Source: a virus (lineage: Duplodnaviria > Heunggongvirae > Uroviricota > Caudoviricetes). Taken from it: a stretch of 36,144 bases of DNA. Position 1 is the first letter of the stretch. Every line of letters starts with the position of its first letter. The stretch lies in IMG/VR virus record IMGVR_UViG_2728369608_000005. One strand, written 5' to 3'. Below, piece after piece: positions 1-34,875 of this stretch. The translations under genes were made by a program, and so were the position numbers. A model generated the notes under the pieces. That model saw only the letters and a program-made list of their open reading frames with translations, was not told where the DNA came from and did not search any database.

Positions 1-502
1 ATGGCAAACCTACCTGAAACCCCGCAGTGGGAAGAAGGCATCTACCAGATTGAGGTCTCTGACCCCGTTCTGGGCGGGCCTGACGGAATTTCTAACCGTC
101 AGGGTAAACAACTGGCCAGCCGCACGCTGTACCTGAAGCAACAGGTTGAAAAAGGCGGTTCTGACCTTGCGAAACATATCGCGGCAGCAGACCCGCATAC
201 CCAGTACGCACCGAAAGCCAGCCCGACATTCACCGGCACACCAACAGCGCCTACGCCTGCAAATAGCGATAACAGCAAGAAGCTGGCGACGACGGAGTTT
301 GTGGCCAAAGCACTTGCGGCGCTTGCAGGCAGCGCCCCTGAGACGCTGGATACGCTCAAAGAGCTGGCTGATGCCCTCGGCAACGATCCGAATTTTGCGA
401 CCACTGTGTTGAACAAGCTGGCGGAGAAGCTGGCCAAAGACCAGAACGGCGCTGATATTCCTGACCCGGCGCTCTTTGTCAAAAACCTTGGTTTGGGAGA
501 AG
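1..502. repeat. Left copy of a perfect >=502-bp inverted repeat (fibre constant region); outer limit cut by window edge
   Basis: Reverse complement of 1..502 equals 2423..2924; first mismatch at 503/2422. Confidence 0.9.
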
Positions 503-3505: not shown

Positions 3506-4601
3506 CGGACACCCCGGTCATGTTAAGAGTGATCGCCGTGCAGTTTGCCCATTCGTTTTCTGCCACCACCCGCAGTGGCGGTGTCACCAGTTCAACCTGG
3601 TACACCCCGGAGACGGACAACACACTGATAATCTGGCTGGGAACAATATCGCGCCCCAGCGTGGCGGTACGTGATGCCACCCAGTTCTGTATGGCGCTGT
3701 TGGCGTTGTCCTTTACCGAGTTGGCATCCTGGTCGCGGTAGATCGTGATATTGGCTTCAATGGTGTAATCCACCTGCAGAGGTGTTTTAGCCCGCACGGT
3801 ATCAGTAAGTGGCCTGACTTTTTCGTCAGAACAGAAACTCTCTACCAGCGTGAGGATGCTGTCGTCCGGCAGGCCGGTACTGAGCAGCGGATACAGCTCT
3901 ACGGTACCGGGGACCGGGGAAAGCACGGCAACATCGACAATGTTGGGATGGGCCTGCATGGCATGAAAGCGGTATGCCATACGGCTTCCGGCGTTGGTGA
4001 ATGACTCCGGGGCCAGTTTGATACGCTCGCGGAGCCTGTCATTGTCTTCCTGCTCAGAACCGCCAGAACTGGCCGCCATATTGGTCACCTGCAGGTCGAC
4101 GTTATCAATCTCATCGAGCAACTGACTGACCTGCGCAGGCTGCCAGCCGTTGCCTGCGGCTCCCGGCTCGGTACAGGTGGCCGTGGCATTGACAAGCAGC
4201 AATCCGGCTTTCAGCACTACGTCCGTATCGGTTGCAAAAATAATGCTGTCGGAAGCGCTGACGCGGGTACCTGCCGGAATCAGCACATCAATGGCCAGTT
4301 CCTCATCCACGGAGAACTGGAGCGTGGTGGTGGCAGGCTGCGCGGCCAGTCGGTATACACCAACCAGTTCACCGAGGTAATCAATCATCGGCTCACGGGC
4401 AAAGGCGACCAGATTCTGTTTGGCCGCTTCCTGCGCCGCCACCCTGACCAGCATTTCGCGGTATGCCCACAGGTCAATCAACAGGCGCTCAGCCTGAGCG
4501 GGGTATAGCGTCTTGCCAGTTGCGGCTTCGTACTGTGCAATCATTTCAGCCGTGATTTTGTCAGCATCACGTTCAATAAAATCGGGTTCTGTCAGCGCCA
4601 T
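3498..4601 (-). CDS. Baseplate protein J-like (Mu gp47-like)
   Basis: 367 aa in the conserved V-W-J-I order; overlaps neighbours by a few bases. Confidence 0.7.
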   Translation of the reverse strand: MALTEPDFIERDADKITAEMIAQYEAATGKTLYPAQAERLLIDLWAYREMLVRVAAQEAAKQNLVAFAREPMIDYLGELVGVYRLAAQPATTTLQFSVDEELAIDVLIPAGTRVSASDSIIFATDTDVVLKAGLLLVNATATCTEPGAAGNGWQPAQVSQLLDEIDNVDLQVTNMAASSGGSEQEDNDRLRERIKLAPESFTNAGSRMAYRFHAMQAHPNIVDVAVLSPVPGTVELYPLLSTGLPDDSILTLVESFCSDEKVRPLTDTVRAKTPLQVDYTIEANITIYRDQDANSVKDNANSAIQNWVASRTATLGRDIVPSQIISVLSVSGVYQVELVTPPLRVVAENEWANCTAITLNMTGVSDG

Positions 4602-4939
4602 AGCAACTCCTGAGTCCGGGGTTGTCCGTCAGAGCCTTTCCAGCTCACCCGGAGCGTAAGATGTTCGCCGTCGACGGCGGGTTTAACCGACATAAGCTGG
4701 CAGCGAGGCTCCCAGCGGCGAATGGCATCGACGGATTCGCGCACCACATGCGGAATAGCCCGGTCAATAGGCCAGTCGATATAAAGGTGCAGATTGCTGC
4801 CGAACTCCGGGCGATGCGGGTCGCTGCCGCGAGGAGTACGCAGGATGATTTGAATGGCCTGCCAGATATCATCCAGCCCCCGGACGATTTCGCCAGGGGC
4901 CTGCAGAGCCGGTTGCCAGAATACTGAGGTTGTTTTCAT
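4592..4939 (-). CDS. Baseplate protein GPW/gp25-like (Mu gp46-like)
   Basis: 115 aa, size and position typical of GPW. Confidence 0.7.
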   Translation of the reverse strand: MKTTSVFWQPALQAPGEIVRGLDDIWQAIQIILRTPRGSDPHRPEFGSNLHLYIDWPIDRAIPHVVRESVDAIRRWEPRCQLMSVKPAVDGEHLTLRVSWKGSDGQPRTQELLWR

Positions 4940-4993
4940 GGGGGCAGTATTGCCCCTGTGCGGGAACGCCGATATTAAAGGCGTTTAAGAAGG

Positions 4994-6878: not shown

Positions 6879-7759
6879 ACACTCCTCGCCAGAATTTTGG
6901 CTGCCATGGTGCTTAACCCCGGCGACATACGGGTGAAGGTGGTGCTGGCGGAGTTAAGCTGCCCGGAAACGGCATCCAGCGCCGCTGCGATATTGCTGCC
7001 GTCCACGCCGCTCAGTGAAGACTGTGCCTGTTGTACATACGTGGCCGCATCACTGGTGGCTCTGGCCAGACTGATGGCATCAGGCATGGATTCAGAAAGC
7101 GCATTAAATGCCGGAACGCTTTGACCCAACGCCCCGGACACGTTGCCCAGCCCGCTCATCAACCCCGGTACGCGGGTCAGTGCAACGGCGGGGTTATCCT
7201 TCATTTTCTGCGCCACCCGAACGGCACTGATGGTGGTCTGGAGAACAGACTGCGCCTGTTTGGCGTAGTTGACGCCGTCGCGGACGTACTGCGCTACCCC
7301 GGAAGGTGAAGGAACGGCACCGGAGACCGCCCTGACGCCGGGAACCTGCGTGCGTATTGCGGGTGGCTGTAGCGGGTTTTTCGGGTCGCCGATGTACTCC
7401 CGGAGAGACGCGGTGGCATTGACGGCCAGCACGTTGCCGGTGCTGTCGGTCTGCTCGCTGGTCGCAGTAACATCGGTAATCACGAACCAGCCGCGATAGT
7501 CACCGTTGCCGAAGACCAGCGCCAGCGCTTGATGGGCCTTCATGGCCGTTCGCAGTCTCGCCAGCTCCACGTCGGGCACACAATAGTGCTGATGGAAGAC
7601 CAGGCTTATCTGGATTTCGTCCAGCTTATCGCCAACGAACTGCAGGCCGGGCTTACCCTCGATACGGGGATGCTCCGCATAATCGACGCCGAACGTGACC
7701 TCGAAGCCGTCCCAGTAGGTAATCAGTTCAAACTCAATATCACCCAATACTGCAAACAT
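6875..7759 (-). CDS. Mu N-like (DNA circularisation) tail protein
   Basis: 294 aa immediately downstream of the tape measure gene; assignment by position and N-terminal similarity. Confidence 0.5.
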   Translation of the reverse strand: MFAVLGDIEFELITYWDGFEVTFGVDYAEHPRIEGKPGLQFVGDKLDEIQISLVFHQHYCVPDVELARLRTAMKAHQALALVFGNGDYRGWFVITDVTATSEQTDSTGNVLAVNATASLREYIGDPKNPLQPPAIRTQVPGVRAVSGAVPSPSGVAQYVRDGVNYAKQAQSVLQTTISAVRVAQKMKDNPAVALTRVPGLMSGLGNVSGALGQSVPAFNALSESMPDAISLARATSDAATYVQQAQSSLSGVDGSNIAAALDAVSGQLNSASTTFTRMSPGLSTMAAKILARSV

Positions 7760-10224
7760 CAGCTGTACCTCCTGCGTTGTTGCTGAGCCAGCAGACGCTC
7801 CAGCATTTTCTCCAGCTCATGCAGGCTCATATTCAGTGCGCCGGTCAACCCGTCAGGCGCTGCGGTTTCTTTGCCATTGAGGAAAAACTGAGGATTAAAG
7901 CTGACCTGGATACCGCCAGATGTTCCGCTGCCAGTTGCAGCTGCGCCACGACCTGAATATCCCGCCGCCATGATTTCCGGCGACGGGATACGGGGAACAT
8001 CCGGTGTCATTTCAGTGGCCAGACGCTGCCCGGCCAGTGCAGCAAGTGGTGTGGTGCGCTGCAGGCCGATAGCGGCCCCCTGCGCAATGTTGTCACCAAA
8101 GCCTATAAACACACGGCTCGGCGAATGAATGCCCAGCTTTTCCTTAAACCAGCCGCCAACACTGTCGCCCATGTCTGTGACGGTAGTTTTGAGCGACTCC
8201 CATTTGTTTTTGATGCCGTTTATTAACCCGTCGATAAGATGGCCACCGAAGTCGGTGAACTTCGCTGGCAGATCAACACCGAGGTATTTCAGCGCAGCCG
8301 CAAAGGCTTTATAGAGCAGACCAACCGGCGACCAGTTAATCAGCAGCTTACCAATCCCCACGACACCGCCATTAAACGCCTCTTTAATGTCAGCCCAGCG
8401 CTGTTTAAACCAGCTACTGACTGCGCCCCAGTTGCGATAAATAAGGTAAGCTGCTGCCGCGACGGCGGTGATGGCGAGACCAATGGGATTCATCAGCAGC
8501 GCCCGGCCAATCCAGAGAACGGCCCGCCCGGCGATCATAATGCCGCGAACCAGCCCACCTGACAGCACACCACCCAGTGTTCTGGCTCCTCTGGCGACGG
8601 CGCTGAAGCCGGTCACCAGCCAGCGGAGCTTACCGCCTTCACCGAGTGCAAGCGACAGTCGAAGCCAGTTGGCCCGCAGTAAAACGGCATTTTTCCAGAC
8701 GTTAACAAAGGGGGAAATAAGGAGATTCAGCCCCAGCTTGAGACCGATAGTGGCCATCTTGAAAGCGAGTAATGCTCCTACAACCTTTATGGAGCCGCTG
8801 ACGATTTGCGGGTTTGCCGCTATCCATTTGCCGACACTGTCCATTAAAGGAATAAAAGTCTCACCCAGTTGGATCAAGGCCGGGCGTAGTGACTCACCAA
8901 TGCTGATGGCTGCCTCGTTAAAACCAATCTGAGTTCTGCGCCAACGACCTTCGAGCGTATTATTTTGTTTTGCAGCATCCTTATCCAGCGTAGACATTGC
9001 TGACGGGGTATTCATTTCCTGCTTGCTGGAAAGGTATTTATCCCAGCCCTGACGCATTGACAGTAAATGGTTAACGGTCTGAATATCAGTGAAGACTTCT
9101 GCCAGACCAAATGACTCCATTAGCTTCTGCTGGCCTTCCTGATCGCCTCTTGAGCCTGCTGCTTTCCATTGCTGTAAAAACGCCTTACCTTTACCGTCGA
9201 TAAAACGGTTGGCAATCATCAGTGAGGCTTCATACTGTGAGAAGCCCTGAGCGACGTAATTCTGCATTGACCCCTGGTAATCCACCCCGGCTTTAGCATA
9301 TTTCTGGATGGTATCTCCGCGCCCCATCGCCGCCAGCCAGTTTGACATATTGGTGACGGCCTCTTCCGCTGAGCCGCTGCCTTTACCAACTTCCAGACTG
9401 GCGACGATCTGGGTTATGGCATCTTTGCCGTAAATACCACGTGCAGCGAAGGCTTTGGCCATACCAGGTAACGCTTTCGCCATATCCTTCAGTTCAAACG
9501 AGCCTAGCTTAGCCCCGGTTGCCGCAATCCCAAACGCCTGCTCCAGCTCTTTCGCATCGGTAATTTTCAGCGCATCGCTAAAGGCGTAGGTCATTTTTGC
9601 GAGGTCAGTCATATCCGCTTTGGTGGCCGTGGCCGCTTTACCGAGCATCCCGGCAAATTTAGCTGCCTGCTCCGGGTTCATACCATCGGCAACTAACTGA
9701 CCAACACCCCCTAGCAGCGACTCCTGGAGCTGATTGACCTGAAGGGATGCCCGACGAATGGCAGTACCGATGGCCTGTTCCTGCCTTGAATCCAGATCAC
9801 CAGTGACACTGATATCCCGCAACTGCGATTCAAACGAGGCATATTGTTTGACTGAGGCCATGACCGGTGCACCCAGTGTTCTGACGATGGCATAGGTTTC
9901 TGCTCCCTGGCCATAGAGCGCCATGCGGTTAGCTTTCAGCGCGTCACTGGTGGTTGATACTGCTGACAAACGGCGCTGCTGGCGCTCAATTTGCTCCATT
10001 GTGCGGCTTACCCGCAGCAGGTCGCTGTTGAGGCGCTGCATCCGGGAAGAGCCTAACTGGCCATAACGTTCAGTTGCACGAGTTAAGGCATTCTGGCGTT
10101 CCTGCAGGCGGCGCGATGTATCGCCCAGGGAATCTAGGGCGCGTCGGGTGCCACTGACGGCTGAGCGGAAGCTGCTCCCGACAATGCCGCCAATAATGAC
10201 GCCGACTGAAAATTCACTGGCCAC
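7759..10224 (-). CDS. Tail tape measure protein
   Basis: 821 aa, Ala/Gly-rich with hydrophobic segments, after the chaperone genes. Confidence 0.85.
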   Translation of the reverse strand: MASEFSVGVIIGGIVGSSFRSAVSGTRRALDSLGDTSRRLQERQNALTRATERYGQLGSSRMQRLNSDLLRVSRTMEQIERQQRRLSAVSTTSDALKANRMALYGQGAETYAIVRTLGAPVMASVKQYASFESQLRDISVTGDLDSRQEQAIGTAIRRASLQVNQLQESLLGGVGQLVADGMNPEQAAKFAGMLGKAATATKADMTDLAKMTYAFSDALKITDAKELEQAFGIAATGAKLGSFELKDMAKALPGMAKAFAARGIYGKDAITQIVASLEVGKGSGSAEEAVTNMSNWLAAMGRGDTIQKYAKAGVDYQGSMQNYVAQGFSQYEASLMIANRFIDGKGKAFLQQWKAAGSRGDQEGQQKLMESFGLAEVFTDIQTVNHLLSMRQGWDKYLSSKQEMNTPSAMSTLDKDAAKQNNTLEGRWRRTQIGFNEAAISIGESLRPALIQLGETFIPLMDSVGKWIAANPQIVSGSIKVVGALLAFKMATIGLKLGLNLLISPFVNVWKNAVLLRANWLRLSLALGEGGKLRWLVTGFSAVARGARTLGGVLSGGLVRGIMIAGRAVLWIGRALLMNPIGLAITAVAAAAYLIYRNWGAVSSWFKQRWADIKEAFNGGVVGIGKLLINWSPVGLLYKAFAAALKYLGVDLPAKFTDFGGHLIDGLINGIKNKWESLKTTVTDMGDSVGGWFKEKLGIHSPSRVFIGFGDNIAQGAAIGLQRTTPLAALAGQRLATEMTPDVPRIPSPEIMAAGYSGRGAAATGSGTSGGIQVSFNPQFFLNGKETAAPDGLTGALNMSLHELEKMLERLLAQQQRRRYS

Positions 10225-10316: not shown

Positions 10317-10574
10317 TTACTGATTGTCGCCGAACTCGCTTTTGATTTGCTCTTCAGCCTGCTCCAGCCACATCTCCAGATCGTCAGTATCGAGGGCATC
10401 AATCTCCCCCGGCTGAAATCTAAACCACCTCGCCAGCAGCCCCTGCGCCTGCATCAGCGTTTTCGTCGCTCTTGCCCAGCCCAGTGACTTGCTGAAATCG
10501 TTTCTGCAGCTCCATGTAATCGGCAAGATCCATGTTATCGAGGTCTTCGGGGAGAATACCGGTGCTACGGGCAA
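10317..10574 (-). CDS. Possible frameshift extension (E-prime-like) of the tail chaperone
   Basis: Overlapping ORF in the +1 frame relative to the chaperone, filling the gap to the tape measure gene; its nominal start codon is TTG. Confidence 0.3.
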   Translation of the reverse strand: MPVAPVFSPKTSITWILPITWSCRNDFSKSLGWARATKTLMQAQGLLARWFRFQPGEIDALDTDDLEMWLEQAEEQIKSEFGDNQ

Positions 10575-10734
10575 TGAGCGGCTCGTCCCAGTCAGCCGGG
10601 TCTTTACTGATTTTGCGCACCTGCTTCAGGTCTTTGACCGTCAGGCGTTTCAGTTCAACCTGCTCAACTCTGGTGCCTGCTGCGGTGGTGAAGGGATAAG
10701 ACAGCTTAAAAGTATCGGATTGGGTCTGTGACAT
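10420..10734 (-). CDS. Tail assembly chaperone (P2 gpE-like)
   Basis: 104 aa, acidic C-terminus, directly upstream of the tape measure gene. Confidence 0.6.
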   Translation of the reverse strand: MSQTQSDTFKLSYPFTTAAGTRVEQVELKRLTVKDLKQVRKISKDPADWDEPLIARSTGILPEDLDNMDLADYMELQKRFQQVTGLGKSDENADAGAGAAGEVV

Positions 10735-10797
10735 GATCGTGCTCCTGTGTAAGTTCAGAGCAGTATGTCTGGAGGTGGACGTGACGGATATTAAAGG

Positions 10798-10825
10798 GGA
10801 TTAAGAAGAAAGGGGCCGAAGCCCC
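10798..10825 (-). terminator. Rho-independent terminator inside the late tail operon
   Basis: Minus strand reads GGGGC-UUCG-GCCCC then UUUCUUCUU; 8 bp after the stop of the 10833..11114 ORF. Confidence 0.55.
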
Positions 10826-10832
10826 TGTGATA

Positions 10833-11114
10833 TCAGTGAGTGCGAAAGCCTTTGCAGTTACGCAGGAAGGCGATAAGAAGCGCCTTTCCTTCAGATTTGC
10901 CGATGCCGGTGAACCAGTGGTCAGGTGGCTCCCATGCCTCAATCAGGTCAGCGAGCTTCCGTGCTTTAGAGCGGGTGCAGTCAATCGGGTCATTGGTTTT
11001 CTGGGTATTAAAAAGGTTTTCCACCCCCGGAATATCAAGGATGGTAAACCACGTACCATTTCCCATGCCAATCGAACCACAGTTCCCGCCTTTATCTTCA
11101 ATCTCGACGGTCAC
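10833..11114 (-). CDS. Hypothetical protein between tube and chaperone genes
   Basis: 93-aa ORF on the operon strand with a GTG start abutting the tube stop; no family recognised. Confidence 0.4.
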   Translation of the reverse strand: MTVEIEDKGGNCGSIGMGNGTWFTILDIPGVENLFNTQKTNDPIDCTRSKARKLADLIEAWEPPDHWFTGIGKSEGKALLIAFLRNCKGFRTH

Positions 11115-11116
11115 CG

Positions 11117-11638
11117 TCAGCCCCCGATATTGATGCGGTAGTCAGTCAACTGGTCAACGCCGCCGACTCGGAAGATGTTGGCCAGATAGTCCAGCTCCAG
11201 CAGCTCTTCACCATCCAGTACCTGCTTGATGTACGTGCAGGTGAAGCTGCTAGAGAACTCGGCGTTCTCGTGCTGTTTGAACGTCCCCAGCGGGTTCTTC
11301 TTGAACATGATCGTCAGGAATGTGACCAGCGGGATTTCGTCAATCAGCCCCTGCGAACTGTAGCGCTGGACGCTGGAACGGCACTGCAGCGCCAGCGACT
11401 TATACGGGTTCGCAGCAGACAGCATCGCGTCGCGGTAAAAGCTGTTCCACTTGATCTCACCCTCCAGCTTGTCGAAGCCTGCCGGGAGTTCCACTTTGCC
11501 CACCATCCCCAGCGCCTTATGCTCCTGCATGGTCATGGAGACGTCCGGGAGTTTGACCTCCTCGGCCCGGCCCAGCAGGTTAGCGCCATCCAGGTAGATG
11601 TTGGCATTCGTGATGCGGTTGATCTCAATCTTTGCCAT
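11117..11638 (-). CDS. Tail tube protein (Mu M / P2 FII-like)
   Basis: 173 aa directly downstream of the sheath gene. Confidence 0.75.
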   Translation of the reverse strand: MAKIEINRITNANIYLDGANLLGRAEEVKLPDVSMTMQEHKALGMVGKVELPAGFDKLEGEIKWNSFYRDAMLSAANPYKSLALQCRSSVQRYSSQGLIDEIPLVTFLTIMFKKNPLGTFKQHENAEFSSSFTCTYIKQVLDGEELLELDYLANIFRVGGVDQLTDYRINIGG

Positions 11639-13065
11639 CAGCTATTCCCCTTCAGGGTTAACAGATATTCCGAGGTGATCTCGGTCTCAAACGTCAGTCG
11701 CTCCAGCGGTGGTGGTGGCGTGTATTTGTAGCTCAGCAACAGGTGACCGGCGGCAAGCTCCGTCTCTTCGTTGCGGGCCGGATCAAACCAGCAGCTGAAG
11801 CCCAGCAGCGCACCGTCGCCAATCAGCTTGCGACCGTAGGCGTTGACCGACTCCGTCAGCGCATCAATCAGCGCCTGGGTAATCGGCATGTCGATGTACT
11901 GCTGGCTGAAGTAACGCAGGGACTCGTTGATCACATCACCGGTACGGCGAACGTTCTCAAAGTTGCGCATATGGGTGACCGTTGGCCATGCCGCCATACG
12001 GTTGCCCCACAGACGCAGGCCGCTGCCGTAGCTGCTGAAGACCGTGGTGATGCCCTGTTCGTTGAGCAGGTTCACCTCGCTCTGCGGGTCGTCAATCATT
12101 GCCGACAGCTGGCGCTCCACGCCGGTGATACCCAGAATTTCCTGGTTGGAGGACGACCACCAGTAGCCCTTGTCCAGGTCGACTTTGGCACGCAGACCTG
12201 CAGCACGCTGGCTCAGCGGCTCCAGCCGTTCGCTGTTGGTGGCCGCGTCGTACACCTTGACGTGCGGGTAGCACAGACGGACGCGGTCGGAGCTGGTGTT
12301 GAAGTTAATGGTGCCTTCCGGGCCACGCCCCGCCAGAGCCTGCGCAAAAGTGGTACCAATCGGCGCGTCGATGTAGGTCACCGCGCCCAGCTTCTCAGCC
12401 ATGGCGATAAGCTCAACCGAGACGCTGTTCTGGGTGCAGAAGACCGGGGCAATCAGTATTTTTGCGAAGTAGCCAAACAGGTTGAAGCTGTCGTTAAGCA
12501 GCTTCATGCCGGTACGGTTGCCCGCAGCGTTAACGGCACCGATGATATCAGCCGGGGTGACTTTAGTTGGATCAGCATAGTTATAGCTGGCCTTCACCGT
12601 TGCATCTGCGGCAATGCTCTTACCAAGGTTGGTAATCACTCCGGTCTGTGCATCAAGCGAGTAGTCCTGACCTTCCACATAAGGCTGGCCATCGCTGTCC
12701 GGTTTTAGTACCAGCTGCGCGACCACCGGATTAGCCAGCTGTGCCTTGCCCGTCGCCTTGTCGAACGTTACATCTTCATCGGCCACAGCGGTTTTATGCA
12801 CAGCCGGATCAAGCACGTTAATGACCAGAACGGTGCCTGCCCCATGGTCGTAGATCGCATCCAGCGCCTGCGGAATGGTAAAACCGGTGAGCTGGCTGCC
12901 AAACGCCGCTGCATCTTTCTCAGACAGGCACTGCACCAGCGTATTGACGTCCCCCATCGGGGCGGTACCAATCAGGCCAATGACGGCAGACTTCACCGTT
13001 TTTACCGGGCGGGCACCGTTTTCCACCTCAATGGTTTCGACGCCATGCAGATAGTTAGCTGCCAT
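11638..13065 (-). CDS. Tail sheath protein (Mu L / P2 FI-like)
   Basis: 475 aa, contractile-sheath size, followed by tube. Confidence 0.8.
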   Translation of the reverse strand: MAANYLHGVETIEVENGARPVKTVKSAVIGLIGTAPMGDVNTLVQCLSEKDAAAFGSQLTGFTIPQALDAIYDHGAGTVLVINVLDPAVHKTAVADEDVTFDKATGKAQLANPVVAQLVLKPDSDGQPYVEGQDYSLDAQTGVITNLGKSIAADATVKASYNYADPTKVTPADIIGAVNAAGNRTGMKLLNDSFNLFGYFAKILIAPVFCTQNSVSVELIAMAEKLGAVTYIDAPIGTTFAQALAGRGPEGTINFNTSSDRVRLCYPHVKVYDAATNSERLEPLSQRAAGLRAKVDLDKGYWWSSSNQEILGITGVERQLSAMIDDPQSEVNLLNEQGITTVFSSYGSGLRLWGNRMAAWPTVTHMRNFENVRRTGDVINESLRYFSQQYIDMPITQALIDALTESVNAYGRKLIGDGALLGFSCWFDPARNEETELAAGHLLLSYKYTPPPPLERLTFETEITSEYLLTLKGNS

Positions 13066-15551: not shown

Positions 15552-16649
15552 TTACAGGCAGCGGGAGACAGCAGCGTCGTAGCTGATGCCTTCTTTTTTC
15601 GACAGTTCCAGCGCTTTCTGATGCAGCGCCAGACGTTCCGGGTCGGCTTCAGCAAACTCCGCTGACGTCGTTTTGATATCCGTGTTCACGCGGTCTTTGG
15701 TCGCGTGCTCACTGAAATTCAGTACCGGATCAGTGCTGTCCAGCAGCGTCTTAAACGCCGTGGCCAGCGGGGTGCGGGTATCGCCTTCAGCAAACTCAAC
15801 CGGCTTGTCACCTGCAGAAACCGCGTCCAGGATGGCCACGACTACCGACTTCGCTTTGGGGGCCAGGCGGCCATCGCCAACCAGCTTCTCGGCAAAGGAG
15901 ACGTTCTCCGCGTGCAGTTTGTCCTGCTTGCTCTTCGCTTCCTGTTCTGCCCGCTGGGTGGCTTCCGCTTTCAGACGTGTGTTTTCCGCCTGAAGCGCTT
16001 TGATTTCTTCTTCAGTCATGGTGCTGTTCTCTTGTTGAGGGTTGGGATTGTGCTCACTGAAGTCCGGTTCAGACTTCCCGGTGTCGCGGTAAGCCTCTTC
16101 ACGCAGGGAGTCCACCTGCCATGAAGGAAGCACCTTATCGGTCTCGTCCAGCCCGAACTGAGCAATCAGAAAATCGCGCAGACGGCCCCATAAAGAGGCA
16201 TTGGTGATATCACTCCAGTCGGCAAACTCCACGACGCCTTCTTCTTTCTCACCAAACGAAACCTGCTTCAGCCCCTTAATGGAAGGTGGCTGCGCCCCCA
16301 GAAAGCCGACATGACGCAGGTAAAGCGTGCCGGGCTTCGGGTTGTTCGGTGAGTCAGGGAGATAGAACGAGGCGGAGACCTTCTTGAAGCGTCCGTTGCC
16401 CACCAGTTCGGCAAACTGCGGGTCGAGCTGGTCAGGCTCTGCCAGCAGATCGCCGCCGTTAAGCGACAGGGACTTCACCCAGCCCCACGCCGGGTCTTCC
16501 GTTTTTGGGTGGCCAATAACGAGTGGTGCTTCATGGACGGACGGGTCATAGGCTTTCACGCAGGCGGCAAGATCGCTTTGCGTGAACGGCAGTTTCGTGC
16601 CGTGCATATCGGTATGAGTACCGGCTTTAAAAATGTGAATGGCTGGCAT
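15552..16649 (-). CDS. Head maturation protease/scaffold (Mu I-like)
   Basis: 365 aa with a charged coiled-coil C-terminal half; upstream of the major head gene. Confidence 0.75.
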   Translation of the reverse strand: MPAIHIFKAGTHTDMHGTKLPFTQSDLAACVKAYDPSVHEAPLVIGHPKTEDPAWGWVKSLSLNGGDLLAEPDQLDPQFAELVGNGRFKKVSASFYLPDSPNNPKPGTLYLRHVGFLGAQPPSIKGLKQVSFGEKEEGVVEFADWSDITNASLWGRLRDFLIAQFGLDETDKVLPSWQVDSLREEAYRDTGKSEPDFSEHNPNPQQENSTMTEEEIKALQAENTRLKAEATQRAEQEAKSKQDKLHAENVSFAEKLVGDGRLAPKAKSVVVAILDAVSAGDKPVEFAEGDTRTPLATAFKTLLDSTDPVLNFSEHATKDRVNTDIKTTSAEFAEADPERLALHQKALELSKKEGISYDAAVSRCL

Positions 16650-16863
16650 TTTGCTGTCCCGCGTTACGTTGTCGGGGACAGTCTGTGGAAAAAGCGTCAG
16701 CGGCGCTTTTAATCTGCTTTAGAAAAAATCGGGGGTATCAGTACGGGGAATGTCACGCTGCAGGCGAATAGTGGTGCAAAGCGGGGGCTGTAAAGCCTTT
16801 ATAAAGGTAATACAGCCCCTCAGCGGCTGGCAATGATAAATCACCCGCCTGTAGAGACAAAAC

Positions 16864-17322
16864 TCAGCGACGGGCCGCTGCTTCAAGATGGCGGACAATC
16901 GTATCGAGGATGGGGACAACCACTTCAGGCTGCAGTTCACCGTCCCCCGTCAGCGGCAGGAAAGGACGGGCCGGAAGTTCGACGGACTCATTACGCCCCG
17001 TTTTACCCCCACACTGGTGAATAGCGCCGTAAACAACGTTAGTGCCGACAGCAGCCTGCCGGTCATCATGATCGGTTGATACTGACCCCATCAGACGCCC
17101 GGTATCCTGCAGTGTTTGCCCGTCGCGCTCCTGCGCTGCCAGCGAGGGAGTCCACCCCGGACGCCCCTCATCGAGAAAGTTAAACTGCGTTTCCGCCAGC
17201 AGGGTTCCGGCGATTTTGCGCATCGCGGGTTCCAGGTCTGTGGCAGCCAGATCCAGCGCACGGAGGCTCCGGCGCAGGGATTCATCGTTAATGGTGACAT
17301 TGACCAGGTTATCGGAAGCCAT
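16864..17322 (-). CDS. Virion morphogenesis protein (Mu G-like)
   Basis: Internal ATG at 17322 (MASDNLVNVTIN..., 152 aa) with GAGAGGA Shine-Dalgarno; the 241-aa track ORF overlaps F. Confidence 0.7.
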   Translation of the reverse strand: MASDNLVNVTINDESLRRSLRALDLAATDLEPAMRKIAGTLLAETQFNFLDEGRPGWTPSLAAQERDGQTLQDTGRLMGSVSTDHDDRQAAVGTNVVYGAIHQCGGKTGRNESVELPARPFLPLTGDGELQPEVVVPILDTIVRHLEAAARR

Positions 17323-17324
17323 CG

Positions 17325-18173
17325 TTATCCTCTCAGTTCCTGCTGTGCCAGCGGTTGAAGCGTACCCTGATAGCGGGCAAGGTCGGGACGGTATGCAGCC
17401 CCCGGCGCATAAGACCAGCCGACGTCGGTGGCCACCTTCGTGGTGCCGGTATTGAAGGTAGCGACATTCTGCATCTCGCCTGTTTTCTCTGAGACCAGCT
17501 TCAGCTCCCATCCCATGGCTGAGCCAGAACCTGACACCTTCAGGCCACGGGCACGCACATCCGCCGCGCTCAGGGCAATCACGCCACAACGGCAGCGCCA
17601 GCCGTTCGGCGGGTAGAACGCCTGCCAGAACGGGTCATCATAGCGCAGCACCAGACCATGCAGCGCCAGATGGCTCTTGCGGGTATGGCTGTCGTTGATG
17701 CCGGTATACATCCAGTACGGCCTGTCGTCGACGTTCTCCATCTGCTCGGCCCAGCGACCGGCGCTGTAGAGTACGGACATATTGGTGCGAAAGATGGTGT
17801 CGAGCCGCCACGGGCTGCCCTGCTGGATGGTGACCGGCTCGCCCGTTACCGGGTCGGTGGTATCACGTGGCCCCCACCATCCCTTGCGCTGCAGCTCCGG
17901 CTCCAGCTCCTGCCGGAACCAGCGGCCTGTTTTTCCTTCATCGACAGCCTGCTGCAGTGCCCCGCGAATATCTTCCAGGATATCAAGGCGGGTCACTTTG
18001 GCGACGGTAAAGGCGCGGGCATGGGCATCCTGCCACATCTCCTCCCAGTCCCACGTGAAGCTATACCCTTTGGACTTCAGGTAACTGATAGCCCGTTTGG
18101 GGGGCAGCGTCATGCAGTACGCCAGTTCAGCCGTTGTCACGCTCATGCAGACGCCCCCAGACAGTTGCAACAA
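17325..18173 (-). CDS. Head morphogenesis protein (Mu F / gp30-like)
   Basis: 282 aa following the portal gene. Confidence 0.75.
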   Translation of the reverse strand: MLQLSGGVCMSVTTAELAYCMTLPPKRAISYLKSKGYSFTWDWEEMWQDAHARAFTVAKVTRLDILEDIRGALQQAVDEGKTGRWFRQELEPELQRKGWWGPRDTTDPVTGEPVTIQQGSPWRLDTIFRTNMSVLYSAGRWAEQMENVDDRPYWMYTGINDSHTRKSHLALHGLVLRYDDPFWQAFYPPNGWRCRCGVIALSAADVRARGLKVSGSGSAMGWELKLVSEKTGEMQNVATFNTGTTKVATDVGWSYAPGAAYRPDLARYQGTLQPLAQQELRG

Positions 18174-22974: not shown

Positions 22975-23692
22975 AGCTGCCGCCCCCCCATGTCAGATAA
23001 CGGGGGGCCAGTTCGTGCAGGATGCGCTGCGGATAATGACGGTTCTCCCGCCAGTTGGCAGTGCTGCGTCCGGCATTCACCGTGGCGACATGACCAAACC
23101 AGCGGGTGCTGTCCAGCCCCTGCTGCGAGGCCAGCCTCTTGTCCCGCTGTACCCAGCCCAGACCGCCGTTATAGCCCGACAGCGTCATGGCCATACGCTC
23201 GCAGCCGTTGGCGGCGCTGACGCGCTGCCACAGCCAGCGGTCATAACTGACCAGCGCCCGGATGGCCCATGCCGGATTAAACGGCTCACGGCTGTTAAGC
23301 CCCGGCATCAGCTGGCTTATCCAGTCGGCGGTGGCGGGCATAAACTGGGCCAGCCCCTGAGCGCCAGCCGGCGAGACCGCATCAGGTCGCCAGCCGCTTT
23401 CCTGATGCAGTTGCGCGGCGAAATCGGCCACTGGCGCAGACAGTCCCCATTCAAGCCGGGCATTACGGATCACATCATCGCGATACTGCAGCGCAGCCTG
23501 CGGAGGCTGCGCTGCGCGGGCCTGACTGAAGAAGCCGCCACACCAGAGCAGCCAGACAATCACCAGGTTGCCAGCAAGCTGCCACCAGAAGCTGTATTTA
23601 TCGTTACGTGGTTCTCCGTGTCTGATGGCGGTTACGCCCAGACCAAAGGCAAGCAGGATGATGAGGGTGATTTGAGGCCAGTTCATGGTCAC
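22964..23692 (-). CDS. Endolysin, lytic-transglycosylase (SLT) type with N-terminal hydrophobic segments
   Basis: SLT motif ESGWRPDAVSPAGAQGLAQFMP; two N-terminal hydrophobic stretches. Confidence 0.75.
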   Translation of the reverse strand: MTMNWPQITLIILLAFGLGVTAIRHGEPRNDKYSFWWQLAGNLVIVWLLWCGGFFSQARAAQPPQAALQYRDDVIRNARLEWGLSAPVADFAAQLHQESGWRPDAVSPAGAQGLAQFMPATADWISQLMPGLNSREPFNPAWAIRALVSYDRWLWQRVSAANGCERMAMTLSGYNGGLGWVQRDKRLASQQGLDSTRWFGHVATVNAGRSTANWRENRHYPQRILHELAPRYLTWGGGSCVD

Positions 23693-24039
23693 AGTCCTGT
23701 TGCCACAGCCAGACAGACCGCTGCAACAATCAGTGCACGGCGGATTAACGCAGCAGAAAATACAAGGTGAAGGCCGGTCTGCACAGGGAAGCGACCATCA
23801 GCCATCAGCCTGTCATCATGCTTCAGGTACTGACCGGGACGGGCTTTGGGGAAAAGCGAACGGTCAAGCCAGTAGCCCAATACTGCCGCCAGCGTGATGA
23901 GTGACAGCTTGTAGACAACCACCGGCAGCTGCTGGGGCGATACCAGACCGATGGTGCCGAGCAGCAGCACTGAGGTCAGCAGCCAGCCGCTGAGACGTGG
24001 CTTTTTAACAGGGGGAATGAATTTTTTCAGGTTTTTCAT
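23689..24039 (-). CDS. Holin-like membrane protein
   Basis: 116 aa with 2-3 predicted transmembrane helices, first gene of the late arm; AAGGAG Shine-Dalgarno 5 nt upstream. Confidence 0.6.
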   Translation of the reverse strand: MKNLKKFIPPVKKPRLSGWLLTSVLLLGTIGLVSPQQLPVVVYKLSLITLAAVLGYWLDRSLFPKARPGQYLKHDDRLMADGRFPVQTGLHLVFSAALIRRALIVAAVCLAVATGL

Positions 24040-24170
24040 GGGTGTCTCCTTGTTGTGTGGGAGACAGCATCACAAATGTGGCGGGATACGGATTTTAAAG
24101 CGCGTTATAAGTGTTCGCAGAGGGAAGCGGCCAGAATGGTGGCACACAAAACACAGGGGAGGCAAGCACG

Positions 24171-24494
24171 ATGACTGAACCGAAACAGACCGGTCTTAAA
24201 AAAGGGTTCCTCTTTGGGATCAGAACCGGAGAGCAGAATAAAACTTACACGCTAAGCGTGGATGCCAGTTGCCCAACCGAGGCGATTGCAGAACTGAGAA
24301 ACGCGCTGACGGCGCTTGAAACGCGAAGCAGCCATTTCGCCAGCGGAGAAAACAACGTCATGATGATTGGCAATGTGGCGGCGACATCACGATATAAAGC
24401 CGTACCTAATCCTACTACTCAGTTATCCGGCGACCAACGAAGACTGGAAGCGGAATCAGCAGTTCCCAGAACGGTTCTTCCTCACCAGTCTTAA
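24171..24494 (+). CDS. Hypothetical small protein (108 aa)
   Basis: ATG preceded by GGGGAGG at 8-nt spacing; divergent from the holin; last 80 bp overlap the 188-aa gene. Confidence 0.3.
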   Translation: MTEPKQTGLKKGFLFGIRTGEQNKTYTLSVDASCPTEAIAELRNALTALETRSSHFASGENNVMMIGNVAATSRYKAVPNPTTQLSGDQRRLEAESAVPRTVLPHQS

Positions 24495-24981
24495 CCGGGG
24501 CCGCTTCTCCCGCCCAGTAAAGCCAGGCCCGGTGATATAATTCCAGCACCGGGCAATCACTGTTCAATAACCTCATATCTCCGCGATGCACCGGCTCATC
24601 TGTGATTACTTCATATATCGGTGCCGTTCTGATTTCGTCTTCGCCTCTCTCATCGGCCAGTAATGCCCGGAACTTCCTGACTTCACTCAGATGCTGACAG
24701 GCAAACAGTGACTGATAGCGGGAAGGTTTGTCAGGAAAATGGCTACGGCGAACTAACTCAAACACCAGACCGACCAGCAGACTTCTGCTGACTCCACTGT
24801 CATCTTCCATTTTAGGGCCGGGGTTATAGAGATAGTTATGACCGTGCTTGGAAAGACCATCGGGATACATCTGATGAAGGAAAGCGGCCAGCTCCGGCGC
24901 TTCAGGTTCGTATTTTCCGGTAATTACATGGCAAGGCGAAGGCAGACGATTAGCGGAATCAAGTGTGTAATACGTTCCCAT
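24415..24981 (-). CDS. Hypothetical protein (188 aa), unknown function
   Basis: ATG-initiated ORF immediately upstream of the lysis/late arm; no family recognised. Confidence 0.55.
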   Translation of the reverse strand: MGTYYTLDSANRLPSPCHVITGKYEPEAPELAAFLHQMYPDGLSKHGHNYLYNPGPKMEDDSGVSRSLLVGLVFELVRRSHFPDKPSRYQSLFACQHLSEVRKFRALLADERGEDEIRTAPIYEVITDEPVHRGDMRLLNSDCPVLELYHRAWLYWAGEAAPVKTGEEEPFWELLIPLPVFVGRRITE

Positions 24982-25224
24982 TCAGAAAACAATCCTTATC
25001 GAACAAACACTGCACGTAGGTAACACATCCAGTAAATCGCGTTAATAGAAAACAGTTATCCATAAGCCTCATCCTGACAATGAAAGAACGACCAGCCCGG
25101 TGCGGTAACACCAGGCTGGTCATCAACCCACAGGTATGCACTGTGAGCCGACCAGGGTTCAGTCAGTCTCGCGAGACCAGACTAGCCTGCCATATTTTCA
25201 CTGATTGCAAAAGGCTTACGGATA

Positions 25225-25995: not shown

Positions 25996-26008
25996 AAGAG
26001 GTAGTTAA

Positions 26009-26036
26009 AGGTGGTGGTGCATCTGCAGCACCACCT
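26009..26036. terminator. Hairpin between convergent Dam and lipoprotein genes (possible bidirectional terminator)
   Basis: AGGTGGTGGTGCA / TGCAGCACCACCT, 13-bp stem with one mismatch; weak T-tracts on both sides. Confidence 0.4.
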
Positions 26037-26042
26037 AAACAT

Positions 26043-34071: not shown

Positions 34072-34489
34072 GCAGCGTCTTATTCAACTCATCCATATTG
34101 CCCGCAATGACCTCCAGATGGATGAGGACACCTACCGCCAGATGCTACAGGGGCTGACCGGCAAAGCCTCAACCAAAGGGATGGATACCCCACAGCTAAA
34201 CCGCGTGCTGGAATCCATGAAAAATAAAGGCTTTCGCATTAAGCCTGCCGGGAAAGCCAAGTCCGGCTTACCGCTGGATAGTCATCCGCAGTCAAAGAAA
34301 ATCCGTGCGCTATGGCTTGAAATGGCTGCCGCAGGCATCGTCCGAGACAGTTCAGAGCAGGCGCTGGCGCTGTGGGTTAAACGGGAAACAGGCATCAGCG
34401 CGTTACGCTGGCTCAGCAATGAGCAGGCAAGTAGCGTGATTGAGAAACTGAAGAAGTGGCAGCGCAGAGCTGCGGGAGTGAAGCAATGA
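34061..34489 (+). CDS. gemA: GemA-like regulatory protein (Mu gp16-like)
   Basis: ATG at 34061 after AGGAG; RLIQLIHIARNDLQMDEDTYRQML ... KKIRALW ... ALRWLSNEQASSVIEKLKKWQ. Confidence 0.75.
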   Translation: MMTKQRLIQLIHIARNDLQMDEDTYRQMLQGLTGKASTKGMDTPQLNRVLESMKNKGFRIKPAGKAKSGLPLDSHPQSKKIRALWLEMAAAGIVRDSSEQALALWVKRETGISALRWLSNEQASSVIEKLKKWQRRAAGVKQ

Positions 34490-34875
34490 GTGACCTGAAT
34501 CAGTTTCGTAGTAAAGGGCCGGAACTGTTGGTAGAACTGGCACAGCATACCTCTGAGACCGTCCGCGAGATTATTGATATCGAACCCGCAGTTGCCGACC
34601 AGATTGGTCAGGCCGTCGCGAACCGCATGATGCAGGTCTGGGGTGGGCAAAACGTCTATTTTCCGATGGGCATGGTCTGGAAGGTCAGTCAGCGCGACCG
34701 GGAAATCTTCCTGGAGTTTGACGGACGCAACCATCACGAACTGGCCCGCAAATTCGGTGTTTCACTACAGTGGGTTTACAGCGTGGTGAAGCGGGTCAGA
34801 AAAGAAGAATTGGATCGGATGCAGGGCAAACTGTTTGATGGTGACTCTGATTCAGAGAAGGTGGAAAATAGCTAA
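34486..34875 (+). CDS. mor: Mor/C-family transcriptional activator
   Basis: 129 aa from the ATG at 34486; GGQNVYFP ... REIFLEFDGRNHHELARKFGVSLQWVYSVVKRVR. Confidence 0.75.
   Translation: MSDLNQFRSKGPELLVELAQHTSETVREIIDIEPAVADQIGQAVANRMMQVWGGQNVYFPMGMVWKVSQRDREIFLEFDGRNHHELARKFGVSLQWVYSVVKRVRKEELDRMQGKLFDGDSDSEKVENS

What the first reader, a model, noticed from the sequence alone, without database searches (positions are those of the whole stretch)
10798..11114. Strong terminator and an unassigned 93-aa gene inside the late tail operon
A GGGGC-UUCG-GCCCC hairpin with a following U-tract sits on the operon strand 8 bp after a 93-aa ORF, between the tube gene and the chaperone and tape measure genes. 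This could attenuate transcription so sheath and tube are made in excess, or it could mark the 93-aa gene as an inserted moron with its own terminator.
Basis: seen in the sequence. Interest (0 to 1): 0.4.

Follow-up and report, generated by a model that had tools for sequence, protein, structure and literature searches.

The report
Terminator and passenger gene after tail tube
In this Mu-type (BcepMu-like) prophage, a conserved transcription stop signal, followed directly by a probable late promoter, separates the high-copy sheath and tube genes from the low-copy tail genes, and a small mobile gene of unknown function has been inserted just upstream of that stop signal; both are ordinary kinds of phage feature.

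Summary
On the minus (operon) strand, a 93-codon ORF (10833-11114) starts 2 nt after the tail-tube stop codon. Seven nt after its own stop lies AGGGGC-UUCG-GCCCCU (10826-10811), followed by UUCUUCUU.

The hairpin does not belong to the ORF. BcepMu, phiE255, a Ralstonia phage and seven close relatives lack the ORF but keep a hairpin plus U-tract at the same place, with different stem sequences. Across 76 distinct tube-to-chaperone gaps, terminator-like hairpins are about 19-fold enriched, on the operon strand only.

Directly 3' of the U-tract lies TTAA-N6-TTAA-N23-CATACT. This motif occurs four times in the window, each time upstream of a late gene block (holin, protease/scaffold, chaperone, gpW). 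A Mor-family activator is encoded at 34456-34875. I read the region as the end of the capsid/sheath/tube transcription unit followed by re-initiation at a Mu-type late promoter. No transcript data support this yet.

The ORF is a real gene (phrog_1239; dN/dS 0.03-0.16) and a dispensable, mobile one. It is variably present, often decayed, has lower GC3, and has homologues in the early "ea" regions of lambdoid phages. The same slot holds other cargo elsewhere (CdiA-CT/CdiI, HEPN, Fer2-like, PAAR). Its function is unknown; a confident structure model has no informative match.

Overall this is a new member of known kinds and of modest interest.

The parts
11638..13065 (-). Tail sheath gene (475 aa)
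   Evidence: PF04984 and PF17482; phrog_23 at E 1e-139.
11117..11638 (-). Tail tube gene (173 aa, P2 FII type)
   Evidence: PF04985 at E 1e-54. 68% identical to BcepMu gp40.
10833..11114 (-). 93-codon accessory gene (ORF93, phrog_1239). GTG start lies 2 nt after the tube stop.
   Evidence: phrog_1239 at E 1.5e-45, full length. dN/dS is 0.03-0.16 over 55 alleles. The structure model has pLDDT 91.7. Absent from BcepMu, phiE255 and 7 close relatives.
10811..10826 (-). Hairpin AGGGGC-UUCG-GCCCCU, the stem-loop of an intrinsic terminator
   Evidence: dG -11.8. The structure is conserved with different stems in relatives. Enrichment is 2.03/kb against 0.109/kb.
10803..10810 (-). U-rich tail (UUCUUCUU) of the terminator. 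Its last two U are the start of the distal TTAA half-site.
   Evidence: A T-rich tail follows the hairpin in most of the lineages examined.
10791..10804 (-). TTAA-N6-TTAA dyad, candidate binding site of the Mor/C-family activator (about -49 to -36)
   Evidence: Conserved in 51 of 76 distinct gaps against 0.02/kb in flanks. The geometry matches the Mu C site centred at -43.5 (PMC2582627).
10762..10767 (-). -10-like hexamer CATACT. No -35 hexamer is present.
   Evidence: The boxes and spacing are invariant while the 19-nt spacer varies freely among relatives.
10420..10734 (-). Tail assembly chaperone (gpE type)
   Evidence: PF10109 at E 7e-23.
7759..10224 (-). Tape measure protein
   Evidence: PF10145; phrog_28.
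16680..16722 (-). Second copy of the late-promoter-like motif, upstream of the protease/scaffold-position gene 15552-16649. Probable start of the unit that ends at the hairpin.
   Evidence: The BcepMu counterpart lies upstream of gp32, the Mu I equivalent.
24066..24108 (-). Third copy of the motif, upstream of the holin gene 23689-24039
4946..4988 (-). Fourth copy of the motif, upstream of the gpW/gp25 baseplate gene 4592-4939. No hairpin lies upstream of it.
34456..34875 (+). Mor-family transcription activator, candidate activator of the four sites
   Evidence: PF08765 at E 1.3e-42.

Best explanation
The window is a BcepMu-like (Bcepmuvirus) transposable prophage whose late genes lie on the minus strand.

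(1) The hairpin plus U-tract at 10826-10803 is an intrinsic terminator. It closes the late transcription unit that carries the high-copy structural genes: protease/scaffold, major capsid, sheath and tube. That unit probably starts at the promoter-like site at 16680-16722.

(2) Fused to the U-tract is a Mu-type, activator-dependent late promoter. It consists of a TTAA-N6-TTAA dyad centred near -42.5 and a -10 hexamer CATACT, with no -35. It restarts transcription for the low-copy genes (chaperone, tape measure and onward). The two sets of genes can therefore be expressed at different levels. The hairpin may also protect the 3' end of the upstream mRNA.

(3) The 93-codon gene is not part of the tail machinery. 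It is a horizontally mobile accessory gene (phrog_1239) inserted between the tube stop codon and the pre-existing terminator. It has no promoter of its own. It rides the late transcript and is probably translated by coupling to the tube gene, so it would be made late and abundantly. The most likely role is action on the host or on competing elements, not tail assembly.

Shown here: the sequence anatomy, the conservation, the variable presence, purifying selection, and the presence of a Mor-family gene. Inferred: termination, promoter activity, activator identity, coupling, and the role of the protein.
For: Identity and anatomy.
- The window is 99.8% identical to Klebsiella phage KP12. At least 80% of the 1.4-kb segment is present in 632 of 5426 complete E. 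coli genomes.
- Pfam assigns sheath, tube, chaperone and tape measure.

The terminator is ancestral.
- BcepMu and phiE255 have no ORF, but carry GGCCCGC-UUCG-GCGGGCC-UUUUUU in the tube-to-chaperone gap.
- Ralstonia YO107_2 has GCCCAC-UUCG-GUGGGC followed by AUUUUUCGUUU.
- Close relatives without the ORF keep hairpins with other stems: GGGGCC/GGCCCC, GGGAGC/GCUCCC and GGGGGCC/GGCUCCC.
- 79 of 80 IMG/VR relatives have the hairpin.
- In 76 distinct gaps from 80 genomes, 52 have a strict terminator-like hit. The density is 2.03/kb, against 0.109/kb in flanks on the same strand and 0.07/kb on the opposite strand of the gap.

The promoter-like element.
- CTTTAWWAWC-N20-ATRCT occurs 3 times in the window against 0.02 expected. 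The generalised motif occurs 4 times against 0.00 expected. All copies are on the minus strand, intergenic, and upstream of holin, protease/scaffold, chaperone or gpW.
- The boxes and spacing are fixed while the spacer varies.
- The motif is found in 51 of 76 gaps, against 0.02/kb in flanks.
- BcepMu has the same geometry before gp21, gp32, gp41 and gp49.
- A Mor-family gene is encoded in the window.
- Mu late promoters have a -10, lack a -35, and carry a C-binding dyad centred at -43.5 (PMC2582627).

ORF93.
- It matches phrog_1239 at E 1.5e-45.
- dN/dS is 0.03-0.16. The gene is intact in 80 of 96 loci that carry a homologue.
- Among the 80 IMG/VR relatives, 7 have no ORF, 1 has a deleted ORF, 61 have the ORF, and 11 have the ORF plus a Phage_gp49_66 gene.
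- GC3 is 57%, against 82% for the tube gene and 71% for the sheath gene.
- Homologues sit in the early-left 'ea' regions of Sf6, HK75, CUS-3, EPP-1 and others, next to Ead/Ea22-like genes.
- Other cargo occupies the same slot elsewhere: CdiA-CT RNase plus CdiI, DUF4145 plus HEPN, a Fer2-like gene, a PAAR cluster, and an IS element.

Precedent. Leaky terminators that balance phage gene expression are documented (PMC9163698).
Against: - There are no transcript 3' or 5' ends, no reporter data and no binding data for this phage or any relative. Every functional step is inferred.
- The stem is short (5-6 bp, dG -11.8, z -1.9) and the U-tract is interrupted, so termination may be weak.
- Some relatives lack the hairpin or have no gap at all: L086, L141, L151 and Pseudomonas phage Bise (5-nt gap). 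The element is therefore not indispensable.
- P2 has the same gene order annotated as a single F operon. Its post-FII hairpin has no U-run.
- The generalised promoter pattern was refined after the sites had been seen, so its '0.00 expected' overstates independence.
- Only one Mor/C-family gene was found. Whether it acts on these sites is unknown.
- A homologue in Yersinia phage fHe-Yen8-01 is annotated 'particle associated protein'. That would fit a virion role rather than a non-structural one.
Confidence: 0.65

Rival explanations
1. Classical moron. ORF93 arrived as a self-contained cassette with its own terminator (and promoter), and is expressed from the repressed prophage independently of the late genes.
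For: - The gene is variably present between otherwise syntenic genomes.
- Its GC3 is lower than its neighbours'.
- Homologues occur in unrelated phage types.
- Cargo in some other lineages lies after the hairpin, in a true moron position (L130, L156, L168).
Against: - The hairpin is present at the same place in genomes that lack the ORF, including BcepMu. It did not come with the gene.
- The start codon lies 2 nt after the tube stop. No sigma-70-like site was found upstream of it.
- In the two-cargo variant, the gp49_66-family ORF starts 2 nt after the tube stop and the ORF93 start overlaps the end of that ORF.
Confidence: 0.1
2. The hairpin acts mainly as a 3'-end mRNA stabiliser or a processing site, not as a terminator. 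Transcription reads through, and differential expression arises from mRNA decay.
For: - The P2 FII-E gap has a stable hairpin without a U-run, inside what is annotated as one operon.
- The stem here is short and the U-tract imperfect.
Against: - A T-rich tail follows the hairpin in most lineages despite complete turnover of the stems. A pure stabiliser would not need this.
- A promoter-like element is kept immediately downstream. That would be redundant if read-through were the rule.
Confidence: 0.15
3. ORF93 is a tail or virion component, or an assembly factor. It is co-expressed with sheath and tube because it is needed with them.
For: - It sits inside the tail gene block and looks translationally coupled to the tube gene.
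- The fHe-Yen8-01 homologue is annotated 'particle associated protein'.
Against: - It is absent from BcepMu, phiE255 and relatives whose tube proteins are 97-100% identical.
- It is disrupted in 16 of 96 loci.
- Homologues lie in the early, non-structural regions of podoviruses and siphoviruses.
Confidence: 0.1
4. The hairpin is a chance inverted repeat with no function.
For: Taken alone it is weakly significant: z = -1.9, and 22 terminator-like sites were found in 15 kb against 13.5 expected.
Against: - Terminator-like hairpins are about 19-fold enriched in the gap, on the operon strand only.
- At least a dozen unrelated stem sequences occupy the same position across two proteobacterial classes.
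Confidence: 0.02

Closest known systems
Intrinsic (Rho-independent) terminators used inside phage late regions to balance expression, such as T7 T-phi after the major capsid gene and the leaky terminators mapped by ONT-cappable-seq (PMC9163698)
   Same: A GC-rich stem-loop plus U-tract on the coding strand, directly after the last high-copy structural gene. The expected outcome is more transcript upstream than downstream.
   Different: Here the terminator is fused to a same-class late promoter 4-11 nt downstream. Its activity and efficiency have not been measured.
[quoted passage not shown]
   Same: - Four sites that precede late gene blocks.
- A -10 hexamer without a -35.
- A dyad overlapping the -35 region, centred at about -42.5 (Mu: -43.5; PMC2582627).
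- A Mor-family activator encoded at the end of the early operon.
   Different: - The operator sequence is TTAA-N6-TTAA, not the Mu C site.
- One promoter sits between the tube and chaperone genes. To my recollection Mu has none there; this was not checked here.
- Only one Mor/C paralogue was detected.
- Nothing has been tested experimentally.
Phage P2 F operon (FI-FII-E-E'-T-U-D)
   Same: The gene order is the same and the tube and chaperone proteins are homologous. A stable hairpin lies in the FII-E gap.
   Different: P2 is annotated as one Ogr-dependent operon that ends after ogr. Its hairpin has no U-run, and no promoter-like element follows it.
Morons of lambdoid phages (Hendrix/Juhala definition, as summarised in PMC2920897)
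   Same: An extra gene between two conserved genes. It is variably present, compositionally distinct, and found in several phage types.
   Different: It has no promoter and no terminator of its own. It uses the host operon's transcript, and probably translational coupling.
Anti-CRISPR loci inside the head-gene block of Mu-like Pseudomonas phages (JBD30 group; from my own knowledge, not tested here)
   Same: Small, variable accessory genes parked inside the structural-gene region of a transposable phage.
   Different: Those loci have their own promoter and an Aca regulator. There is no sequence or structural similarity to ORF93, and no anti-defence activity has been shown here.
phrog_1239 / Pfam DUF7739
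   Same: A full-length match to phrog_1239. The family is about 93 aa long with conserved MTVE..NGTWF..TNDP..W-PP-W..FF--C-GF motifs.
   Different: The DUF7739 match is below Pfam's cut-off (18.7 bits against 27). Neither family has a known function.

Membership tests
Intrinsic terminator | GC-rich stem-loop on the transcribed strand | tested here: met
   AGGGGC-UUCG-GCCCCU has 5 GC pairs plus one A-U pair, with dG -11.8.
Intrinsic terminator | U-rich tract immediately 3' of the stem | tested here: met
   UUUCUUCUU has 7 U in 9, and the first three are U. Relatives have UUUUUU, UUUCUUCUUU, UUUUCAUUUG and similar.
Intrinsic terminator | Intergenic position downstream of a stop codon, with orientation specificity | tested here: met
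   It lies 7 nt after the ORF93 stop. Hits in the gap are 2.03/kb on the operon strand and 0.07/kb on the opposite strand.
Intrinsic terminator | Transcripts actually end there | not testable with these tools
   This needs Term-seq, 3'-RACE or in vitro transcription.
Moron | Present or absent between conserved flanking genes in related phages | tested here: met
   Among the 80 IMG/VR relatives, 7 lack it, 1 carries a deleted copy, 61 have it, and 11 have it plus a second gene. It is absent from BcepMu and phiE255.
Moron | Own promoter | tested here: not met
   The start codon lies 2 nt after the tube stop. No sigma-70-like hit lies upstream of it on the minus strand. The scan is crude.
Moron | Own terminator | tested here: not met
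   A hairpin sits at the equivalent position (homologous flanks) in genomes without the ORF.
Moron | Atypical composition, and homologues in other phage types | tested here: met
   GC3 is 57%, against 82% and 71% for the neighbours. Homologues occur in Sf6, HK75, CUS-3, EPP-1 and fHe-Yen8-01.
Mor/C-dependent late promoter (Mu type) | -10 hexamer present, -35 absent | tested here: met
   The -10-like hexamers at the four sites are CATACT, AATACT, GATGCT and CAGACT. No TTGACA-like hexamer lies 17 nt upstream.
Mor/C-dependent late promoter (Mu type) | Dyad-symmetric activator site overlapping the -35 region, centred near -43.5 | tested here: met
   The TTAA-N6-TTAA dyad is centred at about -42.5, assuming +1 lies 7 nt after the -10 (PMC2582627). 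The transcription start has not been mapped.
Mor/C-dependent late promoter (Mu type) | The phage encodes a Mor/C-family activator | tested here: met
   PF08765 matches at E 1.3e-42 at 34456-34875. BcepMu gp01 is annotated as Mu C/Mor.
Mor/C-dependent late promoter (Mu type) | The motif recurs upstream of the late transcription units | tested here: met
   Four copies, all on the minus strand and intergenic, lie upstream of holin, protease/scaffold, chaperone and gpW. The same geometry is seen at four BcepMu sites.
Mor/C-dependent late promoter (Mu type) | Activator-dependent transcription initiation | not testable with these tools
   This needs promoter fusions with and without the activator, footprinting, and 5' mapping.
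phrog_1239 | Significant full-length profile match | tested here: met
   E 1.5e-45, residues 1-93 aligned to profile positions 1-96 of 96.
Pfam DUF7739 (PF24881) | Score at or above the gathering threshold (27 bits) | tested here: not met
   The window protein scores 18.7 bits and E. coli homologue P0012 scores 24.9 bits. Some homologues carry a precomputed PF24881.2 label.

The most novel reading that the evidence does not exclude
The tube/chaperone junction of BcepMu-like transposable phages is a previously undescribed cargo hotspot, built around a composite terminator-promoter joint. Different lineages load toxin/immunity, HEPN, PAAR and other genes there. ORF93 (phrog_1239) is a new late-expressed, or virion-delivered, counter-defence or exclusion protein with a fold that matches no characterised structure.
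Probability: 0.25. Interest if true: 0.55.

Novelty: new member of a known kind. Interest (0 to 1): 0.35.

Why it matters
If the model holds, it gives a simple picture of how BcepMu-like phages set protein stoichiometry. These phages are resident in about 12% of complete E. coli genomes, including O25b:H4 strains. High-copy capsid, sheath and tube genes sit in one unit closed by a terminator. Low-copy tail genes restart from their own activator-dependent promoter.

It also flags one intergenic joint as a place where these phages collect cargo, including toxin/immunity and defence-like genes. That is useful for prophage annotation and for mining accessory functions.

ORF93 is a small, well-folded and widespread protein with no known function, so it is a reasonable candidate for anti-defence or exclusion screens. 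None of this overturns current understanding.

Tried and rejected
- **Rfam.** No family matched in the window at the gathering threshold, and none matched in 10650-11200 at E<=1.
- **Consensus fold.** MAFFT plus RNAalifold on 23 hairpin variants gave no consensus structure, because stems differ in length and sequence and the alignment is not structure-aware. I used an enrichment test and direct inspection instead. No formal covariation statistic is claimed.
- **ORF93 function.** The PDB sequence profile gave 0 hits. Foldseek against PDB gave a best E of 0.16 (DapD N-terminal domain), with the DNA mimic DMP12 at 0.47, so nothing significant. BFVD returned only uncharacterised proteins. PADLOC gave 0 hits and NCBIfam gave 0. 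All source names read 'hypothetical protein'.
- **DNA-mimic idea.** Rejected. The pI is 6.06 here, and it ranges from 4 to 9.7 across the family.
- **Literature.** Searches for DUF7739, phrog_1239 and fHe-Yen8-01 returned nothing. The BcepMu/KS10/Burkholderia prophage papers do not discuss this junction. A search on tail tube plus terminator mostly returned papers on 'tail terminator protein'.
- **Tail-assembly role for ORF93.** Rejected on distribution.
- **Own promoter for ORF93.** The sigma-70 scan found none.

Full report
**What is there.** All features lie on the minus strand. The tail sheath gene is at 11638-13065. The tail tube gene is at 11117-11638. A 93-codon ORF at 10833-11114 has its GTG start 2 nt after the tube stop codon. 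A hairpin AGGGGC-UUCG-GCCCCU lies at 10826-10811, followed by the tail UUCUUCUUAAUC. The gpE-type tail chaperone is at 10420-10734 and the tape measure gene at 7759-10224. Pfam and PHROGs assign sheath, tube, chaperone and tape measure. The GGGGC stem starts 7 nt after the stop, not 8. 'Strong' is not established: dG is -11.8 kcal/mol, z is -1.9, 8 of 200 shuffles fold at least as well, and the U-tract is interrupted.

**Where the window comes from.** The segment is 99.8% identical to Klebsiella phage KP12 and 99.9% identical to a prophage of E. coli CFSAN051542. At least 80% of it is present in 632 of 5426 complete E. coli genomes, mostly at about 88% identity. The tube gene, but nothing downstream of it, aligns to Burkholderia phages BcepMu and phiE255. 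With an rve-type transposase, an AAA ATPase, a Mor-family activator and Mu-type virion genes, this is a BcepMu-like transposable prophage.

**The hairpin is older than the ORF.** BcepMu and phiE255 have no gene between the tube gene and the chaperone gene. Their 121-nt gap still carries GGCCCGC-UUCG-GCGGGCC-UUUUUUAAUC. Ralstonia phage YO107_2 has GCCCAC-UUCG-GUGGGC followed by AUUUUUCGUUU.

I examined 80 IMG/VR relatives whose tube proteins are at least 93% identical. The tube-to-chaperone gap falls into four classes:
- 87-129 nt with no ORF: 7 loci;
- 262 nt with an internally deleted ORF: 1 locus;
- 369-405 nt with ORF93: 61 loci;
- 664-669 nt with ORF93 preceded by a Phage_gp49_66-family gene: 11 loci.

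The ORF-less relatives keep a hairpin plus T-tract with different stems: GGGGCC-UGGU-GGCCCC, GGGAGC-CUUACC-GCUCCC and GGGGGCC-GCAA-GGCUCCC. Only L086 has none.

A second set of 80 loci came from one genome per species, with tube identity of 69-100%, spanning Enterobacterales and Betaproteobacteria. It shows many further unrelated stems at the same position, in Photorhabdus, Xenorhabdus, Pectobacterium, Brenneria, Lonsdalea, Dechloromonas, Chromobacterium, Undibacterium, Jeongeupia and Iodobacter. With strict criteria, 52 of 76 distinct gaps contain a terminator-like hairpin on the operon strand. The density is 2.03/kb, against 0.109/kb in the flanks on the same strand and 0.07/kb on the opposite strand of the gap. 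A structure-blind MAFFT/RNAalifold run could not align these stems, so I claim positional and structural conservation, not a formal covariation statistic. Exceptions exist: L086, L141, L151 and Pseudomonas phage Bise, which has a 5-nt gap.

**A promoter-like element follows the hairpin.** Directly 3' of the hairpin lies CTTTAATATC-N20-ATACT. Among relatives the two boxes and their spacing are invariant, while the spacer changes freely.
- The pattern CTTTAWWAWC-N20-ATRCT occurs three times in the window against 0.02 expected.
- After comparison with BcepMu, the generalised form HTAA-N6-TTAA-N23-VAKRCT occurs four times against 0.00 expected.
- All four copies are on the minus strand and intergenic. 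They precede the holin gene (24066-24108), the protease/scaffold-position gene (16680-16722), the chaperone gene (10762-10804) and the gpW baseplate gene (4946-4988).
- The generalised pattern was refined after the sites had been seen, so that statistic is not independent. An independent check is that the motif is present in 51 of 76 distinct gaps of other genomes, against 0.02/kb in their flanks.
- BcepMu has the same geometry before gp21 (holin), gp32 (Mu I equivalent), gp41 (chaperone) and gp49 (gpW).

If +1 is taken as 7 nt after the -10-like hexamer CATACT (10767-10762), the TTAA-N6-TTAA dyad spans about -49 to -36 and is centred near -42.5. Mu late promoters have a -10, lack a -35, and bind the activator C at a dyad centred at -43.5 (PMC2582627). 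The window encodes a Mor-family protein at 34456-34875 (E 1.3e-42). BcepMu gp01 is annotated as Mu C/Mor.

The distal half-site begins inside the U-tract. In most lineages the 3' end of the hairpin lies only 4-11 nt from that half-site. Only this one of the four sites in the window has such a hairpin fused directly to it.

**Proposed mechanism (inferred).** The unit that starts at the 16.7-kb site carries the genes needed in the highest copy number: protease/scaffold, major capsid, sheath and tube. It ends at the terminator. The chaperone, tape measure and following genes restart from their own activator-dependent promoter. This decouples the expression levels of the two sets. The hairpin may also protect the upstream mRNA's 3' end. 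Leaky terminators that balance expression are documented in phages (PMC9163698). P2 has the same gene order but is annotated as a single Ogr-dependent F operon. Its post-FII hairpin lacks a U-run.

**The 93-codon gene.**
- It is a real gene. It matches phrog_1239 over its full length (E 1.5e-45). The N-terminal MTVE motif is conserved, which supports the GTG start. dN/dS against the window allele is 0.03-0.16 over 55 alleles.
- It is dispensable. It is absent from BcepMu, phiE255 and relatives with 97-100% identical tube proteins. It is disrupted by stops, deletions or truncation in 16 of 96 loci that carry a homologue.
- It looks foreign. GC3 is 57%, against 82% for the tube gene and 71% for the sheath gene.
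- The family is small: 61 representative clusters among 1.84 billion proteins.
- Outside BcepMu-like phages, homologues lie in early-left accessory regions of lambdoid and P22-like phages (Sf6 gene 22, HK75, CUS-3, Edwardsiella EPP-1, an Enterobacter phage). In the three lambdoid contexts inspected they lie next to Ead/Ea22-like genes. A homologue also occurs in Yersinia phage fHe-Yen8-01, whose Sf6-gene-22 relatives are annotated as similar to a pHCM2 plasmid gene; there it is annotated 'particle associated protein'.
- The gene has no promoter of its own and uses the pre-existing terminator. It therefore fails two defining features of a classical moron, while meeting the variable-presence and composition features.
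- The AlphaFold2 model is confident (pLDDT 91.7, pTM 0.83, a small alpha/beta fold), but it has no significant PDB match, and BFVD matches are all uncharacterised. PADLOC and NCBIfam gave nothing. The DUF7739 match is below Pfam's threshold.

My best guess is that this protein acts on the host or on competing elements rather than in tail assembly. Confidence in that guess is low.

**The junction is a cargo slot.** In other lineages the same joint holds:
- a Fer2-like 110-aa gene (Pectobacterium);
- a CdiA-CT RNase A toxin with its CdiI immunity protein (a Neisseriaceae genome);
- DUF4145 plus HEPN proteins (Iodobacter);
- a PAAR cluster on the opposite strand (Chromobacterium);
- a DDE transposase (IS) gene alongside ORF93 (Pantoea stewartii);
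- a 66-aa ORF.

In several of these lineages the cargo lies after the hairpin, which is a true moron position. In the E. coli lineage ORF93 lies before it.

**Verdict.** The attenuator reading is supported by comparative evidence only, and is better described as a unit boundary followed by re-initiation. The reading of a moron with its own terminator is not supported as stated, although the gene is a mobile accessory gene. Both features are new members of known kinds. Interest is modest (0.35). It comes from the composite terminator-promoter joint, the cargo hotspot, and a well-folded protein family with no known function.

Noticed in passing
window 1-502 and 2423-2924: A 502-nt perfectly complementary inverted repeat. 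The arms are the identical N-terminal parts of two convergent tail-fibre genes (1-942 on +, 1962-2924 on -). Each is followed by a Caudo_TAP fibre-assembly gene (945-1388 on +, 1360-1965 on -). This could be a Mu G-segment-like alternative fibre cassette or an end-of-assembly artefact.
   Followed up: partly
window 16650-16880 (minus strand): A 214-nt intergenic region between the virion-morphogenesis gene (16864-17589) and the protease/scaffold-position gene (15552-16649). It contains terminator-like hairpins (16880-16865; GGGGCUGUA...UACAGCCCC around 16820-16784), a sigma-70-like TTGTCT-16-TATCAT, and a fourth late-promoter-like site at 16680-16722. BcepMu has a similar hairpin plus motif upstream of gp32.
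   Followed up: partly
window 35374-36144 (+): A NAD-dependent epimerase/dehydratase gene running off the window end, just beyond the Mor-family and Mu gp27-like genes. It is either the host flank or cargo at the prophage end.
   Followed up: no
window 24111-26576: An accessory block between the late operon and the repressor: a D12-class adenine methyltransferase (25225-25995, +), a DUF2441 protein (24415-24981, -), and unassigned ORFs.
   Followed up: no
L010, L015, L018, L022, L027, L031, L032, L037, L039, L045, L087; also L093, L094, L096, L104: A second passenger gene (about 97 aa, Pfam Phage_gp49_66, E 4.6e-12) sits between the tube gene and ORF93. It starts 2 nt after the tube stop, and its end overlaps the ORF93 start.
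   Followed up: yes
L156 (Neisseriaceae), L168 (Iodobacter), L152 (Chromobacterium), L130-L139 (Pectobacterium), L100 (Pantoea stewartii): Other cargo at the same tube/chaperone joint: CdiA-CT RNase A plus CdiI; DUF4145 plus HEPN; a PAAR-protein cluster on the opposite strand; a Fer2-like 110-aa gene; and a DDE transposase (IS) gene alongside ORF93.
   Followed up: partly
L092 2875-2930 (phage P2 FII-E gap): P2 has a stable hairpin CCGGUCAGC-CUG-GCUGGCCGG followed by UUAACCC (no U-run), at the position equivalent to the terminator studied here.
   Followed up: partly
L005, L006, L008 (Edwardsiella EPP-1, Enterobacter vB_Ecl_MII_001, Shigella Sf6): In these three lambdoid phages the ORF93 homologue is directly adjacent to an Ead/Ea22-like gene in the early-left region.
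   Followed up: partly
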